Below are positions 18,540-63,118 of a stretch of 64,000 nt of DNA, one piece after another; positions within the stretch are counted from its first letter, which is position 1, and each line of letters opens with the position of its first letter. The stretch is from the human T2T-CHM13v2.0 reference genome, Homo sapiens. The stretch is from NCBI RefSeq assembly GCF_009914755.1, contig NC_060928.1, one strand, 5' to 3'. Below the pieces are notes generated by a model. The model was not told the origin of the DNA, did not search any database, and saw only the letters and a list, made by a program, of their open reading frames with translations. The translations under genes were made by a program, and so were the position numbers.

Positions 18540-18850
18540 TGGTTTCTGCATGTGGGACCAATATGGGCAAAGTTTAAACAGATGCAAATGGTAAGGGGAG
18601 GAGGCAGTGTCACGTCTTGTTTTACGTATTTCTTCATATCCAGATTGAATTTAAGTCATTCTCTTCTTGGAGCTTTTGGAGTACACTTCCACTAAAGTTA
18701 TAGCATGCTTGAATGGTTTATTTCACCAATATTTGCTTATGGAAATAAAGGGGAGTGGCCGAGGAGAAAGGAGAAGAGGAGTGGAGGAGGGGTTTGAGGC
18801 TGAGGGAGGCTCTGACCACAGCACAGAGCACCGGCAACTTTGTCTAATGT
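18540..18850 (+). promoter_or_regulatory. Putative APELA proximal promoter with perfect octamer
   Basis: ATGCAAAT at 18582-18589, CCAAT at 18558-62, GTCACGTC near 18608 and a GA-rich stretch at 18745-18810. Repeat-free region directly upstream of exon 1. Confidence 0.45.
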
Positions 18851-18999
18851 GATCATTAACCTTCCTGCAAAACACAGCTGGCAGTTCTCTGAGGTTTGTC
18901 ACTAGAATGTGAAGACAGCCACACAGATATTGCACAGACTATTTACAGATCGTTTGGTTTACATTGAGAGTCATTGCTCTACTTTTGTGCGGTAGGAAA

Positions 19000-19075
19000 A
19001 TGAGATTTCAGCAATTCCTTTTTGCATTTTTTATTTTTATTATGAGTCTTCTCCTTATCAGCGGACAGAGACCAG
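19000..19075 (+). CDS. APELA: APELA (Elabela/Toddler) coding exon 1: signal peptide and start of mature peptide
   Basis: ATG at 19000 with A at -3 (gaaaATGa). Translates MRFQQFLFAFFIFIMSLLLISGQRP plus 1 nt and ends at donor CAG|GTAGG (GT 19076-77, phase 1). The N-terminus is hydrophobic, and the sequence is recognised as human APELA. Confidence 0.97.
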
Positions 19076-19802
19076 GTAGGCCTTTGATACATTTGTACAA
19101 GTAACTTGTTTTGCCTGTTTGCATCCCTGGGTCTCTGAGCATGATTGTGTTTATCTGAAAACCACTTAGGTGTGCTTGCAGTTAGTAGTATTGGGGATAA
19201 ATGTGTAGGATTTTGAAAGTATGCTATCTATCCTGTTGGGTCTATTATTTCAATATTTTAAAAACATCTGGACTTTGAAATGATAAGTATTTTACCACTA
19301 TTTTTCCTAAATGCCAAGAAAATAGATCTCTAAGCTATTGCAGATTATGTTGTCTTTACAAGTAAAATGAAACAGAAGTGTTCGTCTATTCATTATAAAG
19401 GTAAATAAATGTATAGATTTTTAGGTAAAATGCAAACTCCAAAGCAGTTTATTTAAAAAGTATGTTGCTGCCCAGAGTAGGGGCTGAATTAACATACAAA
19501 AAGCATAATGCAACAAAATGCAGATTAAATCTTAAAACAGGTCAATAGCTGTCATTTCTAATTATGTAACTAGGCATGTCACTTAAAACAAATAAGTGCA
19601 GTTTTTATTATTATGCTTATACAGCTAAAAAGCATCAAAAATATGTATGATAAAGATACATAATATTAATTTACTTGACATGTTTTCAAAGATGATATCA
19701 AGTATATTGTACTTAACCAACAGAAATTTAGTACACAAAAGTATTCTAATGTACTTTTACTTCAAAACCAAACAGCTAAGATTTCAAAGAACCAGTAAGT
19801 TT

Positions 19803-19891
19803 GAAAAAAAAAAGAAAGAAAAGAGAGAAAAGAAGAGAGAAAGAAAGAAAGAAAGAAACAGAAAAAAGAAAGAAAGAAAGAAAGAAAGAAA
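19803..19891 (+). repeat. (GAAA)n purine tract in APELA intron 1
   Basis: A/G low-complexity run. Confidence 0.9.
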
Positions 19892-20587
19892 TTAGAAAGT
19901 TAAAGTTTTCTGAACCACAAACCCAACTTTAAATAAAAAGGTGGTAATATTTACATCCAAATATGTTAAATTATTCACTTGATAATATACTTCTTCAGTT
20001 AGAACAGAAAACGATGCATCACTTGTTAAAAATTCAGACTTTGCTTTTTAGTGAATTAGAAGTTTGATCACTGTGAGTTTATTTCGAATGATGTCCCCTG
20101 GTCTGTGCTTTTACATAAGTAAGAAAAAAGTTCCAATTCAGCAACTCTGAGAAAGCAGCTTGATCCCTTCTCATTGTTTACAGCAGTCACTATTCAAACC
20201 ATTTATACTTTTCAGAAATACACAGTAGCTTTGACAATGTTCTTACAAAATATTTGTGATTAATTTACTACATAAAATAAAAGGTCTAGGAGCATTTAGG
20301 AAAAAATCATTCAAAAGGAGGAGGATATTACTATTAAGATGTTGCTATGTTGCTCAACGATGGAGTTAAAAAAATAGGAGTAAAAGAAGATCTTGCTATT
20401 AACATTAACTGTTAGGAACACCCCTTGTGTATATGCATCACATTGGTTTTTAATTTTATAATCACATTTGAACAAATGGCAAATAACCACAATCTAGTTT
20501 GGCTCCAAAATATGTTTGCATTGTCTAGATTAAACAACAATTAAGCCTCTGAAAAATGCTCCTAATACTTCTCTCTTTTTCCTTCAG

Positions 20588-20676
20588 TTAATTTGACCAT
20601 GAGAAGAAAACTGCGCAAACACAATTGCCTTCAGAGGAGATGTATGCCTCTCCATTCACGAGTACCCTTTCCCTGA
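20588..20676 (+). CDS. APELA: APELA coding exon 2: mature hormone C-terminus (V)NLTMRRKLRKHNCLQRRCMPLHSRVPFP*
   Basis: Polypyrimidine tract and CAG acceptor (cttctctctttttccttcag, AG 20586-87). Phase matches exon 1 (76+89=165 nt = 54 aa + TGA at 20674-76). Donor GAG|GTATTT at 20678. The C-terminus CMPLHSRVPFP is the ELA-11 sequence. Confidence 0.97.
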
Positions 20677-20948
20677 GGTATTTCTGACAGAAAATAGATT
20701 CGCTACATTTAGGCAGTGTTCCAAATTAGATATACCAGGAAATGTTTCTTCACAGTTTGTAATATGTGATAATGGCTTATGGCAATGTCAAGACTTAAGA
20801 GATGCATACCAATAAATGAAAGAGTTAAATGAATGACATGACTTTTGAGAATTGCTTTAATAGTTAAGGAAGAAAATTAGACAGATGAGGACAATGTAGG
20901 AAAATCTTGATAACTGTTGAATCTGAGTAACAGCTATTTGGGGGCTAA

Positions 20949-21479
<531 letters not shown>

Positions 21480-25584: not shown

Positions 25585-25789
25585 AAAAAAAAAAAAAAAG
25601 ACAGAAAGACGAAAGAGACAAAGACAGAAAGAAAGAGGAGGAGAAGAAATAAAAAGAAGAGAGAAAGAAGACAGAAAGAGAGGAAGAGAAGAAAGAGAAG
25701 GGAAGAAAAAAGGAAAGAAAGAAACAGGGAAAGAAGGAGAGAAAGAAAGAAGGAAAAAAAGAAAGAAAGAATGAAAGAAAGAAAGAAAG

Positions 25790-25835
<46 letters not shown>

Positions 25836-25924
25836 GAGAAGAGAAAGAAAGGAGAGAAGAAAGAAACAAAGAGAGAGGGAAAGAAGAAAGAAAAAGAGGA
25901 AGGAAGAGAAGGAAAGAAAGAAGA
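25585..25924 (+). repeat. ~340-bp GA-rich/(GAAA)n low-complexity tract
   Basis: Almost pure purine run. Confidence 0.92.
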
Positions 25925-26744
25925 GTTCCACCATTGACTCCATAGTGCTCTCTAGCGACCAGCCCATGTTCTCTTCATCTCTTCAAAGCCACACTTTTTG
26001 AAAAGGCAGCTGTTTTCTTTCCTCCCAACTATTTTCAACACATTGTTCCCCTTTTCCTTCTGCGGAAGGTCCATTATGACTTCCTTCTTCTGAATCCAGT
26101 GAATGTGTTTCAGTCCTGATCTCAGTTATCCCGCTGTAGGTCAAATGGAACACAAAATAATAACAATAATTTGACAAACAACACCTTACAATATATACCT
26201 TTCCAGTTTCATCTGTTACCTTATTCTTTCCCCCTTGCCTGTCCCAGAGGAGATAAGAGTTAAGACTGTGTTTGGACCTACTAGATTCAAGCTCTGGCCA
26301 CACAGCTCACTCTCTGGTGATCATTGTTGGTAAGTCATTTATTCTCTCTGAGCTTCCCTCCACTTCCAGATCTGTAAGATGGAAATTGTTATGGCCCTTA
26401 TCCTATCATAACAATACTTGGCACACAGTAAGTGCTAAATAAATAGTAGTTAGACTTATTATTACTTTAAAATCAGTCCATTCTTCACCTCTTAACTGTT
26501 CTTCAAGCTATGCTTTTGCCTCAAATTTTTTCACTTTTTTTCTCAGTATCATTCATCCTTTAGGAAACCTTCTCTGATTTTATTACCCCTATTAGTTACA
26601 ATAGATATACCCACTTTTGCTCTCAGAGCACTAGTTACATACTTCTGTTAAAGTCCTTAACGCCTGGCATTAGAAAGTGTTAACTGACTATAGTCTTCCC
26701 CTCTTCCCTCTGCATGCTGTAAATTCCCTGAAGGCCGAGGGTAG

Positions 26745-37090: not shown

Positions 37091-39200
37091 ATCTCTCTAG
37101 CTAACTTTACTGGATCTATCAGAAGAAGAAGAGGAGTGAAGGAAAGACACCCAGCCACACAAAAGAACTTCATGATGCCAACAGCGTGATTGCTTAGAAG
37201 TTCCTACACAAAAAAAGGATCATTTGAAAGCACCTGGAATGGTTTATTAGCTTCACAGGATTTTATTCTTCTTGGCTTCTATTTGGAGGGAAAATAACAT
37301 AAATTCAAAAGGATTCCAATCTGAAGCCCAAATCGTTTGCCTACATAACAAAAATATCTCATCTTTTCCTGCACATTATTATTCTTTTATGGGTTAAAAA
37401 GAAAAATACCTTTTAGTGTTTTAGAACTCTCTCATGGTAAAAAGTGCAAGAATTTAAAATGTTGCTTTCATATTCCTATAATTCTCCAAAAGTATTAAAT
37501 TCGTATATGTTTGAGTGATTTTCTAAAAACTGCTCAACCTGAAATCAATTGCATTGACCATTTGGCTTCGCACAATAGGGAGAAAATAATTGGTTCATTG
37601 ATTATATAGAGAGAAAGACTAAGAAAAGCTATTAATTGCTACCAATTTTATGATAAGCTTTAAGGTTTATGAAAGTATGTTTTTTTATTTAATGAGTAAT
37701 GTCCATTTGAAGTTGAAAGAAAACATGAAATCCTAATTGTAGTTCATTTTATGTTCAAATGAAACCATTGTTTTTGTTTTTGTTTTGAAACAGAGTCTCA
37801 CTCTGTTGCCCAAGGTGGAGAGAAGTGGCACGCTTTTGTCTCACTGCAACCTCCACCTCCCGAGTTCAAGTGATTCTCGTGCCTCAACCTCCCAATTATA
37901 GGCTGGGATTACAGGTGTGCACCACTACACCCAGCTAATTCTTGTATTTTTTGTAGAGATGAGGTTTTACCCTGTTGCCCAGGCTGGTCTTGAACTCAGG
38001 CTGGAACCATTCATTTTTTAACCTTTCTCATCATGTAATTATAGGAACCCAACGTTTGATTTCCTTTGAAGTTTTGTTATGTCCTTTATTATTTTGTATG
38101 GATAATTTCTTTAAAAGTCTTACTTAAAGTTGACATCTAAAATACAGTTATGCCAATGAAGTCCCACTCAGGGTGATATCTGTATCTAAAAGATGAGTGC
38201 TCATCATCCTATTAGGCTTTGTCTTGGTGGTGTTCATCCTGAGATGCTGAGACATGGAAATAAAAAATCAGAAGGAATTTAGGGATATGATTACTCAAAA
38301 AAGAAACTATCCTGTCTAAATTTGAATTGTGTTGATAACTAGGTGTTCCCCAGATGCTAAGATGTTCTTAATTTGTATTTATTGAAGGATTGTTAGCTTA
38401 GTGCCACAAAATTTTTCTTACTTTATGTTAATTCCAGATAAGAAATTTACAAGTTTATATCTTTTTTTTTCTTTTTTTTAAGATGAGATCTGGCTCTATC
38501 ACCCAGGCTAAAGTGCAGTGGCATGATCTAGGCTAACTCCCTGGCTCAAGCGATCCTTCCACCTCAGCCTCCCAAGTACCTGGGACTACAGGCACTCACG
38601 GCCACACCTGACTAATTTTTGTATTTTTTTGTAGAGATGGAGTATCGCCATGTTGCCCAGGTTGGTCTCAAACTCAGGCTGGTGAGCTCAAGTGATCCGC
38701 CTCCTTGGCCTCCCAAAATACTGGGATTACAGGCATGTGCCACCATGCTGGGCCACAAGTTCATATCTGGAGTAGAAGTTTTACTTTGTAAATATTATAA
38801 AGTAGAAGAAACCATAAACCATTTTGCTAAAATGAAAGGTTGGGGTTAATATAAATGTAATTTTAAATAGAAAATCTGACAACACTGTCGAGTTTGTCTT
38901 CCTGTCAAAGCTTATTAAAAGTGTCTTTGCGGATGAATGGTACTTTCCACAAGTGCATTTGAGTAGAAGCATAACCTATTCTCAGTTATATTTATGTTTA
39001 AAACATGTACTGGTTTGTATATTTTGTACTGAAAAAGAAAACACTTTATAGTCAAGATACATCTCATTCAATACAAGTCTAAACTCTTTCAAATACAAAT
39101 TCGCATATTCACAGAAAAAGTTACAAATCAGTTTTACTATTGTAAAGTAATGAAATGGTTATACATTTCTTAATTGTTCAATAAAACACTCAATGATTTG
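37091..39200 (+). other. APELA: Probable APELA last exon (3'UTR only)
   Basis: Acceptor tttgtttctcccttgcctctcaaatatAG at 37089-90, with a second AG at 37099-100. AU-rich unique sequence containing two antisense Alus. AATAAA at 38259-64 and 39180-85, the latter followed by GT-rich sequence. Confidence 0.65.
39180..39185 (+). terminator. Candidate polyadenylation signal of APELA
   Basis: AATAAA followed by CA dinucleotides and then tgtctggctgtcctt (GU-rich). Confidence 0.55.
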
Positions 39201-39590
39201 CATGTCTGGCTGTCCTTACTTTGTATAAGAAATGTTCAGTGTTGAGTATAGCATGGTAGAAATGTTCCTGATGCCCGTCTCTGTTTCCAGTGTTTGTTCC
39301 TATTAATTGAGGCATTTAAGACTGAACAGCCTCGATACAGCCCTTACCACTGCAGATCTTTTACATAATTCATGATGATCAGAGCAAGGGCAAAGATTCT
39401 CTCAAAGTCTACCAAAACACAATAACCAGTGGCACATATGCTTGTTGACCTACCAGAACAGGTCCTTGACATACAGCTATCTTTTATTCACCGGGAGGTA
39501 AATGAGACCAGAGGGGTGCCAAATCTGTGTTCTTTAAACTCAACAATTTTTATGGGTTGGTATTCTTTTAATTATCTTTCTTGGAGATAG

Positions 39591-40400: not shown

Positions 40401-40670
40401 CTTCCTTTGAGGAATGAAAATCATTGTTTGCTGTACATTTGATCAGAAGAAAAAAGAAAAACTGAAATTAGTGAAGTCAGTGAAGTCTTCGGTCCCGTCC
40501 TGAATCATTTTTACCCTCTGTTTAGGGACAGGTCTAGAACGAGTGAGCACAAAACTGAAGAGTGTGCCGAAAATCTCAGCAATCAAGATAACATTTGAAC
40601 TCCATTTTTGAAAAAAATAAAAACTAACACCCACGAAAAATACATGATGAATAAAACATCAAAATTTTAG
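40401..40670 (+). other. Candidate alternative terminal exon of APELA
   Basis: Strong acceptor tgttttgcccttcttacAG (40399-400). AATAAA at 40616-21 and 40650-55. Unique sequence between Alus. Confidence 0.4.
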
Positions 40671-40942
40671 ATAAACACAGGATATCAGGAGTGAGTGTGG
40701 TGGCTCACTCACCCAAAGTGTAATCCCAGCACTTTGGGAATCTAAGACAGGAGGATTGCTTGAAGCAAAGAGTTACAGACCAGCCTCTGCAACATAGCAA
40801 GTCTTCGTCTCTAAAACAAAATAATTAGCCAGGCATGGTGGCGCATGCCTGTAGTCTAAGCTACCAGGGAGGTTGAAGTGGGAGAATCACTTGAGCCTAG
40901 GAGTTGAAGGCTACAGTCAGTTATGATCACCACTGCATTCTA

Positions 40943-56870: not shown

Positions 56871-57242
56871 TGGAATTTTAACGTGGTGTCTTTTCTTACT
56901 CATAGGAAGGATTCCCTATCTTGGACCTGAGGCTGCTTTCTTGAAGAAAACTTGACTTTATTTCATTTAGTGGGAAGAGCAGCAGCCCAGCTATTAAGTT
57001 CTAATATGCAATAGGCTGCAGGCTGTGAAGTGTTCGTGGCAGTAGACTCTGAAGCTAAGGAGCTGAGGGCTTAACAAGTTTCTAGAAGCTGCCATCAACA
57101 TGCCAAGTCAGTAAAACTGATAGTTGATCAGATTTCAAGGTCTGGGGAGTATATCCACTGTGTACTGGGTCTTGAGCTCTAGAGAGCTAGGCCTTGCTAA
57201 AATAAAAGAATTACCTTACCTACCATCTTTGTTCAAGTCTCA

Positions 57243-58660
57243 GTGGAATTTGTTACGGCCCTGGCTGACCTCCGAGCAGAGGCTAGCTGTCCCATCTGTC
57301 TGGACTACTTGAAAGACCCAGTGACCATCAGCTGTGGGCATAACTTCTGTCTCTCCTGCATCATTATGTCCTGGAAGGATCTACATGATAGTTTCCCCTG
57401 CCCTTTTTGCCACTTTTGCTGTCCAGAAAGGAAATTTATAAGCAATCCCCAGCTGGGTAGTTTGACTGAAATTGCTAAGCAACTCCAGATAAGAAGCAAG
57501 AAGAGGAAGAGGCAGGAAGAGAAGCATGTGTGTAAGAAGCATAATCAGGTTTTGACTTTCTTCTGTCAGAAAGACCTAGAGCTTTTATGTCCAAGGTGCA
57601 GTTTGTCCACTGATCACCAGCATCACTGTGTTTGGCCCATAAAGAAGGCTGCCTCCTATCATAGGAAAAAACTGGAGGAATACAATGCACCGTGGAAGGA
57701 GAGAGTGGAACTAATTGAAAAAGTCATAACTATGCAAACCAGGAAATCACTGGAACTGAAGAAAAAGGTAAAACATAGGGCAGAAGAAGTCAAGTCTGAA
57801 TTTGAGCAACTTAGGTTATTTCTCCAAAATGAGCAAGAGACTGTTCTTAGGTAATTACAAGATGAAGAGATGGATATTTTAGCACAACTAAATGAAAGCC
57901 TAACAAAATTTTCAGATTATACCTCCTCATTAAAATATCTACTAAAGGAGGTAGAGAGCATGTATGTAAAGTCAGAACTGGAATCACTGGCAAATGTTAA
58001 GGATATCTGTCACAGATATAAAAATTTAAAATTCCCTGAACCTTTTTCATTCAAATTAAAAGAATATGGTTACCATCTGCCTCCACAATATTCTGGCCTA
58101 GACAAAATTATCAAGCAATTTCAAGTATAGATGTAATACTAGATCCTGAAACAGCACATCCTGAACTTATAGTCTCAGAAGATAGAAAAACTGTGCAATA
58201 TGAAAATACAACACAAAATGTACCTCATAACCCAAGAAGATTTTATCTCTTCCCAGCTGTTCTGGATTCTAAGGGATATAGTTGTGGCAGGCAGTACTGG
58301 GAAGTAGAAGTGAAAGACAAGCCTGAATGGATTCTTGGTGTCTGTAATGACTGTCTTCCCAGAAGGAGGAAGAGTCAACCAATATTAGTACAGGATGGAT
58401 TATGGGGAATTTGGAGATCTAGTCAGAATAATTATATTGTATTGGGCCACAAGGAAATTATTCTGCTGCCACAAGTAATTCCTAGTAAGATTGGCATTTT
58501 TTTAGACTATGAAATGAATGAAGTTTCCTTTTATAATTTGAATGATAGATCTCTTCTCTATACTTTTAATGATAACTTTACAGGAGCACTTTGGCCTTAT
58601 TTTTATACTGGAACTGACTCAAAACCTCTTAAAATTTCTACAGTAACAGATTCTGAATGA
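57243..58660 (+). pseudogene. TRIM60/TRIM61-family pseudogene (RING, B-box2, coiled coil, PRY/SPRY); possibly TRIM60P14
   Basis: RING (CPIC..CGHNFC..C..CPFC), B-box (CKKH..FC..D..LLC..C..H..H) and B30.2 (LDPETAH, YWEVEV, IGIFLDYE..VSFYN, LWPYF). Lesions: GTG in place of ATG at 57243, in-frame TAA at 57852-54, and a 2-nt TA insertion near 58128 causing a frameshift. Confidence 0.9.
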
Positions 58661-62252: not shown

Positions 62253-62783
<531 letters not shown>

Positions 62784-63118
62784 TCCATGTTCTTACTCTT
62801 AATTCATTTCCAAACTGTCCCCTGCACTTGTCTGATTGCCTGAATTCATTTTAAGGCATCTGGCTTTATGCCATTTTCATCTTGCAGAATACTCTCAAGG
62901 AGCCCTCTAATCTGCAACACAGGCACATTTGTTCACTAAGCCAGCTGCTCAGGTATCTTGGAGATATTCTTAGCATCTCTTGAATTGTTTTACCTGTTTT
63001 TATGTTTTTCCATTTGGAAGTTGGTTTCTTGTTTAATTGGAGCACATCCTTCAGGAGCTTTCTAGTAAGGTTCATGGGAAATAAAGTTTTTGATACCTTT
63101 TGATACCTTTGTATCTGA

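What the first reader, a model, noticed from the sequence alone, without database searches (positions are those of the whole stretch)
19000..20676. Hidden spliced small ORF encoding a secreted peptide hormone (APELA/Elabela/Toddler), invisible to the ORF track
Seen in sequence: two short exons (76 and 89 nt) with canonical, phase-matched GT-AG sites join into a 54-aa ORF. It has a 22-aa hydrophobic signal peptide and a basic 32-aa mature region QRPVNLTMRRKLRKHNCLQRRCMPLHSRVPFP. That region carries dibasic convertase sites (R31R32, R42R43), a Cys39/Cys44 pair, an N-L-T sequon and a C-terminal ...PFP resembling apelin's ...PMPF. Established knowledge: this is APELA, the second ligand of the GPCR APLNR/APJ. 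It acts in gastrulation cell migration, heart and placental development and hESC self-renewal, and was long annotated as non-coding RNA. It is the real biological system in this window, but it is already described rather than new.
Basis: partly seen in the sequence, partly recalled or inferred. Interest (0 to 1): 0.9.

Follow-up and report, generated by a model that had tools for sequence, protein, structure and literature searches.

The report
Human APELA (Elabela/Toddler) hormone gene

Summary
Observation confirmed. Window 19000-19075 and 20588-20676 are joined by a canonical GT-AG intron in matching phase.

Interpretation supported.
- The exon-2 part is 28 of 28 identical to residues 5-32 of PDB chain 7W0N_D, "Apelin receptor early endogenous ligand".
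- Each exon piece alone passes the Pfam PF22050 "Toddler" cut-off of 27 bits: 59.2 bits on profile 31-58 and 28.6 bits on profile 1-28.
- A GT-AG small ORF on its own is not beyond chance. Loose rules build 605 such ORFs in the window. The family match is what decides it.

New here: the same genome holds two intronless, disabled retrocopies of the APELA mRNA, on contigs C11 and C4. Both read straight through the exon 1/2 junction, which is genomic evidence that the junction is used.

The C4 copy also carries, exactly at the exon 2/3 junction, an 82-nt piece. It maps to window 26248-26329 in intron 2, between an intact acceptor and a GTAAGT donor. This looks like a 3'UTR cassette exon and is absent from the RefSeq models supplied.

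Verdict: already known; low interest.

The parts
18846..19075 (+). APELA exon 1 (5'UTR 18846-18999; coding 19000-19075: Met1 to first base of codon 26, the signal-peptide part)
   Evidence: Gene table. ATG at 19000 in context AGGAAAATGA; donor CAG|GTAGGC. The 25-aa translation hits PF22050 profile 1-28 at 28.6 bits, cut-off 27. The 5' end of the C4 retrocopy falls within about 3 nt of 18846.
19076..20587 (+). Intron 1 (1512 nt, GT...AG, phase 1)
   Evidence: Absent from both retrocopies.
20588..20677 (+). APELA exon 2 (coding 20588-20676, stop TGA 20674-20676; one UTR base; donor GAG|GTATTT)
   Evidence: The 28-aa translation of 20590-20673 is 28/28 identical to 7W0N_D residues 5-32 and scores 59.2 bits on PF22050 profile 31-58.
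26248..26329 (+). Candidate 82-nt cassette exon in the 3'UTR, inside intron 2, not in the RefSeq models supplied
   Evidence: A 79-nt insert sits exactly at the exon 2/3 junction of the C4 retrocopy and matches window 26246-26326 at 84% (E 7e-21). A genome-wide search with 26200-26380 finds 2 places, the parent and that retrocopy, and the retrocopy match covers only query 47-127, the exon and not its flanks. The piece is flanked by a pyrimidine tract ending CCCAG| and by |GTAAGT. Both sites pass the loose splice rules.
37091..39202 (+). APELA exon 3 (all 3'UTR, 2112 nt); AATAAA at 39180, 22 nt before the annotated end; a proximal AATAAA at 38259
   Evidence: Acceptor TATAG|AT and hexamer positions. 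Both retrocopies are collinear with it from its first base. The C4 retrocopy ends about 10 nt after the hexamer at 38259.
18907..18912 (+). Minimal upstream ORF (ATG directly followed by TGA) in the 5'UTR; a second one lies at 18847-18852, 1 nt from the annotated 5' end
   Evidence: contexts ACTAGAATGTGA and TGTCTAATGTGA. Function not tested.
40401..40738 (+). Alternative last exon of the second RefSeq transcript
   Evidence: Gene table. Acceptor TTCTTACAG|CT. Its end lies in Alu-like sequence (the Alu label is from recall).

Best explanation
This is the human APELA gene. A 2.4-kb, three-exon mRNA has only 165 coding bases, split over exons 1 and 2. Translation from the ATG at 19000 gives a 54-aa prepropeptide. 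Its hydrophobic N-terminus takes it into the secretory pathway. Removal of about 22 residues leaves the basic 32-aa peptide ELA-32, and cuts at the two Arg-Arg sites can give ELA-22/21 and ELA-11. The conserved C-terminal 11 residues insert into the binding pocket of the class A GPCR APLNR and activate Gi and beta-arrestin signalling. Shown here: the exon structure, the ORF, identity with the solved ligand chain, family membership, and past use of the splice junctions. Taken from the literature: secretion, processing, receptor activation and biology.
For: Splice sites, phase and ORF. Identity of 28/28 to PDB 7W0N_D; chain residues 5-32 align to N27-P54, so the 32-residue chain starts at Q23, the expected mature N-terminus. 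PF22050 Toddler at 59.2 and 28.6 bits against a cut-off of 27, on collinear profile parts 31-58 and 1-28. In the same genome, the profile matches 1-58 in one uninterrupted stretch on C11. Both retrocopies align without a gap across the exon 1/2 junction at about 80-82% identity, so spliced mRNA with this junction was once reverse-transcribed into the germ line. The stop codon lies 1 nt before the last junction of the main isoform, and AATAAA lies 22 nt before the annotated end. The hydrophobic stretch has a best 12-residue Kyte-Doolittle mean of 3.02. Literature passages (PMC6731456; PMC13197934; PMC7485868) cover four points: the 3 exons and 54 aa; the 22-aa signal peptide; the 32/21/11 products; and cryo-EM of ELA-32 on the receptor, with the C-terminal 11 residues making the contacts.
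Against: Nothing contradicts it. Limits are as follows. No RNA-seq or ribosome profiling could be consulted. No vertebrate orthologues could be aligned, so codon-level conservation was seen only indirectly through the Pfam profile. The signal-peptide cleavage site was not predicted with a dedicated program. At position -3 of the proposed cut is Ile, which I recall to be acceptable but not typical. [quoted passage not shown] Several studies leave open a second receptor (PMC6731456).
Confidence: 0.98

Rival explanations
1. Bifunctional transcript: besides encoding the peptide, the long APELA RNA itself acts as a regulatory RNA. In mouse ESCs it is reported to bind hnRNPL and thereby free p53 for damage-induced apoptosis.
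For: Only 165 of 2432 mRNA bases are coding. A commentary (PMC4465304, passages) reports that in mouse ESCs the coding region is dispensable for this effect and that hnRNPL precipitates with Apela RNA. PMC6731456 says human and mouse ESCs express ELA but not the apelin receptor.
Against: This adds to the peptide role rather than replacing it. The evidence is from mouse. The human 3'UTR carries primate-type repeat insertions, so RNA-level conservation is doubtful. Rfam gives 0 matches in the window.
Confidence: 0.2
2. Chance ORF in a non-coding RNA: the GT-AG join and hydrophobic start are coincidental and no peptide is made.
For: Loose rules build 605 spliced 40-100-aa ORFs in this window, 13 with a signal-peptide-like start. 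The locus was once annotated as non-coding (PMC6731456).
Against: 28/28 identity to a solved receptor ligand. Both exons are above the Pfam Toddler cut-off. The literature describes knockouts and pharmacology.
Confidence: 0.01
3. The peptide acts mainly through a receptor other than APLNR in some settings (hESC self-renewal, kidney protection).
For: Passages of PMC6731456: ESCs lack APLNR yet respond to ELA; receptor knockdown did not change ELA effects in one kidney-cell study; some authors do not rule out further ELA receptors. [quoted passage not shown]
Against: No such receptor is named in what I read. Zebrafish ELA mutants phenocopy receptor mutants. Cryo-EM structures show direct ELA-32 binding to APLNR.
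Confidence: 0.15

Closest known systems
APELA / Elabela / Toddler (Pfam PF22050; PDB 7W0N, 7W0O, 7W0P ligand chain)
   Same: It is this gene. Coordinates match the supplied RefSeq coding parts. Identity over exon 2 is 28/28. Both exons match the family profile.
   Different: Nothing in the coding part differs.
Apelin (APLN), the first APLNR ligand
   Same: Works alike. It is a secreted prepropeptide with a signal peptide and basic cleavage sites, and its short C-terminal active core enters the same receptor pocket (PMC13197934 passages).
   Different: Not the same family. The reviews state little sequence similarity, about 25%. No Pfam family other than Toddler was hit. The ELA Phe sits in a different groove from apelin's C-terminal Phe.
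Micropeptide genes first annotated as lncRNA (general class)
   Same: A very short spliced ORF in a long, mostly untranslated transcript, missed by ORF-length filters.
   Different: APELA is a secreted GPCR ligand with a solved receptor complex. From recall, most members of this loose class are not.

Membership tests
APELA/Toddler (PF22050) | Sequence match to the family profile above the curated cut-off | tested here: met
   Exon 2: 59.2 bits, E 5.1e-16, profile 31-58 of 58. Exon 1: 28.6 bits, E 1.9e-06, profile 1-28. Cut-off is 27 bits.
APELA/Toddler (PF22050) | Identity with the human mature peptide used in solved receptor complexes | tested here: met
   28/28 to 7W0N_D residues 5-32 of 32. 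The first four mature residues lie across the splice junction and were not compared with the chain.
APELA/Toddler (PF22050) | N-terminal signal peptide (about 22 aa) followed by a basic mature peptide | tested here: inconclusive
   An uncharged hydrophobic run follows M1-R2, with a best 12-residue hydropathy mean of 3.02, and Gly is at -1 of the proposed cut. No signal-peptide predictor was available. The 22-aa length comes from literature passages and from the 32-residue PDB chain.
APELA/Toddler (PF22050) | Conserved cysteine pair and near-invariant C-terminal 11-13 residues | tested here: met
   C39 and C44 and the C-terminal block are present. About 2 bits per residue against the profile over this part. 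Invariance across vertebrates comes from passages, not from an alignment made here.
APELA/Toddler (PF22050) | Three-exon gene with the ORF split over exons 1 and 2 | tested here: met
   Splice sites at 19075|19076, 20587|20588, 20677|20678 and 37090|37091. 'Three exons'.
APELA/Toddler (PF22050) | The exon 1/2 junction is used in vivo | tested here: met
   Indirect but independent: 2 of 2 retrocopies in the genome align without a gap across the junction. No RNA-seq was available.
APELA/Toddler (PF22050) | Codon-level conservation in vertebrate orthologues | not testable with these tools
   No vertebrate genome or protein set was reachable. Each exon piece (25 and 28 aa) is below the 40-aa minimum of the large protein search.
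APELA/Toddler (PF22050) | Binds and activates APLNR | not testable with these tools
   Taken from the solved complexes and review passages.

The most novel reading that the evidence does not exclude
APELA has an unlisted 82-nt cassette exon in its 3'UTR (window 26248-26329). It was spliced in the ancestral germ line or early embryo, is fossilised in the C4 retrocopy, and still has intact consensus splice sites in human. Including it would move the stop codon from 1 nt to 83 nt upstream of the last exon junction. By the usual 50-55-nt rule (recalled), that isoform would be a target of nonsense-mediated decay. This would be a splicing switch that tunes hormone output. The isoform may already be in GENCODE or Ensembl, which I could not consult.
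Probability: 0.2. Interest if true: 0.3.

Novelty: already known. Interest (0 to 1): 0.1.

Why it matters
That is a good validation of the scan, but it adds nothing to biology. Two side results have modest value. First, two old processed pseudogenes serve as a genome-internal record of how the mRNA was spliced, where it started and where it was polyadenylated. Second, the candidate 3'UTR cassette exon could matter for the regulation of a peptide under study as a drug lead and biomarker.

Tried and rejected
- Orthologue search: the large protein search needs at least 40 aa, and each exon piece is shorter. No reference can name the spliced peptide, so the search was dropped. Codon-level conservation therefore stays untested.
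- Earlier scan findings were not available.
- Rfam over the whole window gave 0 matches at gathering score, so there is no known structured RNA in the gene.
- CpG island at the promoter: none. CpG observed/expected is 0.16-0.21 around 18846, against 0.25 for the window.
- Longer ORFs in the mRNA: the only other ORF of 30 aa or more is 70 aa, at mRNA 1867-2079. It overlaps the Alu-like stretch at mRNA 1700-1978, so I rejected it as meaningless.
- The loose splice rules are crude. They recover 3 of the 5 annotated APELA sites tested: the exon 1 donor, the exon 2 acceptor and the alternative last-exon acceptor. They miss the exon 2 donor and the exon 3 acceptor. They also allow 22 candidate 50-200-nt exons in intron 2. 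The rules alone therefore do not single out the cassette exon; the retrocopy does.
- Literature on APELA pseudogenes or retrocopies:
  - 'elabela' with 'processed pseudogene': 0 papers.
  - 'apela' with 'pseudogene': 27 papers, 20 listed, none on this subject by title or abstract start.
  - The three-term search listed 15 of 253 papers, and only one holds 'apela'. Its single 'pseudogene' is not in the main text.
  - I saw listings only for these, and the library omits most subscription journals.
- No structure or complex prediction was run, because the receptor complex is already solved.

Full report
**1. The observation**

- An ATG at 19000 (context AGGAAAATGA, A at -3) opens a frame that runs 76 nt to a donor CAG|GTAGGC at 19075|19076.
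- At 20587|20588 a long pyrimidine tract ends in TTCCTTCAG|. From there 89 nt run to TGA at 20674-20676.
- 76+89 = 165, so the intron splits codon 26 after its first base.
- Without splicing the frame stops after 34 aa, and exon 2 shows only a 25-aa ATG ORF. An ORF list would indeed miss the gene.

**2. Is it more than chance?**

Not by anatomy alone.
- With loose donor and acceptor rules, the window yields 357 spliced ORFs of 40-100 aa on the + strand and 248 on the - strand.
- Of these, 5 on + have a signal-peptide-like hydrophobic start, and all 5 share first exon 19000-19075. On the - strand 8 do.
- The rules are crude. They find 3 of the 5 annotated APELA splice sites I tested.

**3. What decides it**

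- The 28 residues read from 20590-20673 are 28/28 identical to residues 5-32 of PDB chain 7W0N_D. The same sequence is in 7W0O and 7W0P, named "Apelin receptor early endogenous ligand" (E 7.7e-16).
- The register puts residue 1 of that 32-residue chain at Q23 of the ORF.
- The same piece scores 59.2 bits on Pfam PF22050 "Toddler", profile 31-58 of 58 (cut-off 27).
- The 25 residues of exon 1 score 28.6 bits on profile 1-28.
- So two separate exons match consecutive halves of one 58-position profile, which is what the proposed join predicts.

**4. Rest of the gene**

- Exon 2 ends one base after the stop, at GAG|GTATTT.
- Exon 3 begins at 37091 behind TATAG| and ends at 39202, 22 nt after an AATAAA at 39180.
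- The mRNA is 2432 nt, of which 165 are coding. Introns are 1512 and 16413 nt.
- In the main isoform the stop lies 1 nt before the last junction. By the 50-55-nt rule (recalled) it should escape nonsense-mediated decay.
- There is no CpG island at the start site: observed/expected 0.16-0.21.
- Rfam finds nothing in the window.

**5. Independent evidence of splicing from the genome itself**

- Searching the window's own assembly with PF22050 gave 4 matches at 3 places.
  - The first place is exon 2 of the parent gene.
  - The second is a stretch on contig C11 (56762109-56762267, - strand). It covers profile 1-58 without interruption but holds 2 TAA stops.
  - The third is a stretch on contig C4 (56884681-56884835, - strand), matched in two frames.
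- A DNA search with the first 690 nt of exon 3 found 3 places: the parent and the same two loci, at 82% and 81% identity.
- Aligned to the spliced mRNA, both copies run straight through the exon 1/2 junction. The C11 copy also runs through the exon 2/3 junction. They are therefore processed (retrotransposed) copies.
- Both are disabled (alignments).
  - The C11 copy has a stop at codon 5 and another near the end.
  - The C4 copy keeps the ATG and the hydrophobic start. A 1-nt deletion shifts the frame before the conserved C-terminal block.
- Kimura distances over mRNA 321-972 are 0.212 (parent to C11), 0.189 (parent to C4) and 0.256 (C11 to C4).
- The copies are thus old and independent of each other. 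With a recalled neutral rate of about 2.2e-9 per site per year, this is roughly 50-60 million years. That figure is a rough inference only.
- An Alu-like insert in the parent 3'UTR (mRNA about 999-1231, window about 37769-38001) is missing from the C11 copy.
- The C4 copy carries its own Alu nearby, in the opposite orientation. I take the parent's insert to be younger than both copies.

**6. What the retrocopies add**

- The C4 copy has a 79-nt insert exactly at the exon 2/3 junction.
  - It matches window 26246-26326 in intron 2 (84%, E 7e-21).
  - In the window this piece is bounded by a pyrimidine tract ending CCCAG| at 26247|26248 and by TTG|GTAAGT at 26329|26330.
  - A genome-wide search with 26200-26380 finds 2 places, the parent and the C4 copy. 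The copy matches only query 47-127, that is, the exon without its flanks.
  - Under my loose rules the chance that both ends of a random segment fall within 3 nt of such sites is about 3e-4.
  - I read this as an 82-nt cassette exon of an alternative four-exon isoform. It is absent from the RefSeq models supplied. I could not consult GENCODE.
  - With it, the stop would lie 83 nt before the last junction (inference: NMD-prone).
- The C4 copy starts within about 3 nt of the annotated 5' end at 18846.
  - It ends about 10 nt after the proximal AATAAA at 38259, followed by a decayed A/CA-rich tract.
  - A possible 10-11-nt target-site duplication is seen. Only an 8-mer is exact, so this is weak evidence.
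- The C11 copy extends to window 18679, 167 nt upstream of the annotated start, and lacks 18821-18919. That suggests an upstream start site once used, plus a later deletion. I did not resolve this.
- Past mRNA position 1608 the C11 copy runs into sequence that I recognise from memory as LINE-1.

**7. Mechanism**

Shown here are the gene structure, the ORF, identity with the solved ligand and family membership. The following comes from passages I read.
- PMC13197934: the gene has 3 exons and gives a 54-aa peptide. Removing the signal peptide gives ELA-32. Two dibasic sites predict ELA-21, ELA-22 and ELA-11, but only ELA-11 has been seen endogenously by mass spectrometry. In the cryo-EM complex the C-terminal 11 residues govern receptor contacts.
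- PMC6731456: the locus was misclassified as non-coding. Zebrafish mutants phenocopy receptor mutants. ELA maintains ESC self-renewal although ESCs lack the receptor. Mouse knockouts show placental and cardiovascular defects. A second receptor is not excluded.
- PMC7485868: a 22-aa signal peptide, a conserved cysteine pair, and the last 13 residues nearly invariant.
- PMC4465304: in mouse ESCs the RNA itself is reported to act through hnRNPL and p53, independently of the coding region.

From the sequence alone, a cut directly after R31R32 leaves 22 residues and a cut after R42R43 leaves 11. I found nothing on use of the N-L-T sequon.

**8. Comparison and verdict**

This is not merely like APELA; it is APELA. 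Every defining feature I could test was met. Receptor binding and cross-species codon conservation could not be tested here. The novelty class is "already known" and interest is low. The retrocopies and the candidate cassette exon are minor additions. I found no paper on APELA pseudogenes (listings only), but genome annotation may already hold them.

Noticed in passing
L001/L006 (G000:C11:56759925-56763767, copy on - strand): Processed pseudogene of APELA, about 82% identical to the spliced mRNA from position 75 to 1608. It has no introns, a stop at codon 5 and a second TAA near the end. Its 5' end reaches window 18679, 167 nt upstream of the annotated start. It lacks window 18821-18919. Past mRNA 1608 it runs into LINE-1-like sequence (label from recall). 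One review passage places the receptor gene APLNR on 11q12.1; whether this copy lies near it was not tested.
   Followed up: partly
L003/L004/L007 (G000:C4:56882449-56886335, copy on - strand): Second processed pseudogene of APELA, about 80-81% identical. It is full length at the 5' end and carries the 82-nt cassette exon. It is interrupted by its own Alu insertions and ends just after the proximal AATAAA. It keeps the ATG and the hydrophobic start but is frameshifted before the conserved C-terminus. The stop-to-stop frame around the start is 137 aa. Expression is unknown.
   Followed up: partly
window 18847-18852 and 18907-18912: Two minimal upstream ORFs (ATG followed at once by TGA) in the APELA 5'UTR. 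The first is 1 nt from the annotated transcript start. The second has A at -3 and lies 93 nt before the main ATG.
   Followed up: no
window 38259-38264: A proximal AATAAA in the 3'UTR. The C4 retrocopy ends about 10 nt after it, which suggests a shorter 3'UTR isoform was once used.
   Followed up: partly
window about 37769-38001 and about 38470-38748: Two Alu-like inserts inside the APELA 3'UTR (mRNA about 999-1231 and 1700-1978). They match several Alu-like stretches in the fetched loci. The first is absent from the retrocopies and so is younger than them. The 70-aa ORF at mRNA 1867-2079 overlaps the second.
   Followed up: partly
window 19803-19891, 21083-21132, 25585-25922: Purine-rich or pyrimidine-rich microsatellites in introns 1 and 2: GAAA-type, TCTCC-type, and an (AAAG)n array of about 83 copies. 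The first produces the spurious 82-aa Lys/Glu/Arg-rich ORF at 19647..19895.
   Followed up: no
window 57201-58657: TRIM60P14. RING and B-box domains lie in one frame (57201-57851) and PRY plus SPRY in another (58040-58657). This is an intronless TRIM copy broken between the halves, consistent with the pseudogene label.
   Followed up: partly
window 62295-62800 (- strand): RPL26P16. The two halves of the Ribosomal_L26 domain (profile 1-40 and 41-81) lie in different frames, so the copy is frameshifted.
   Followed up: partly
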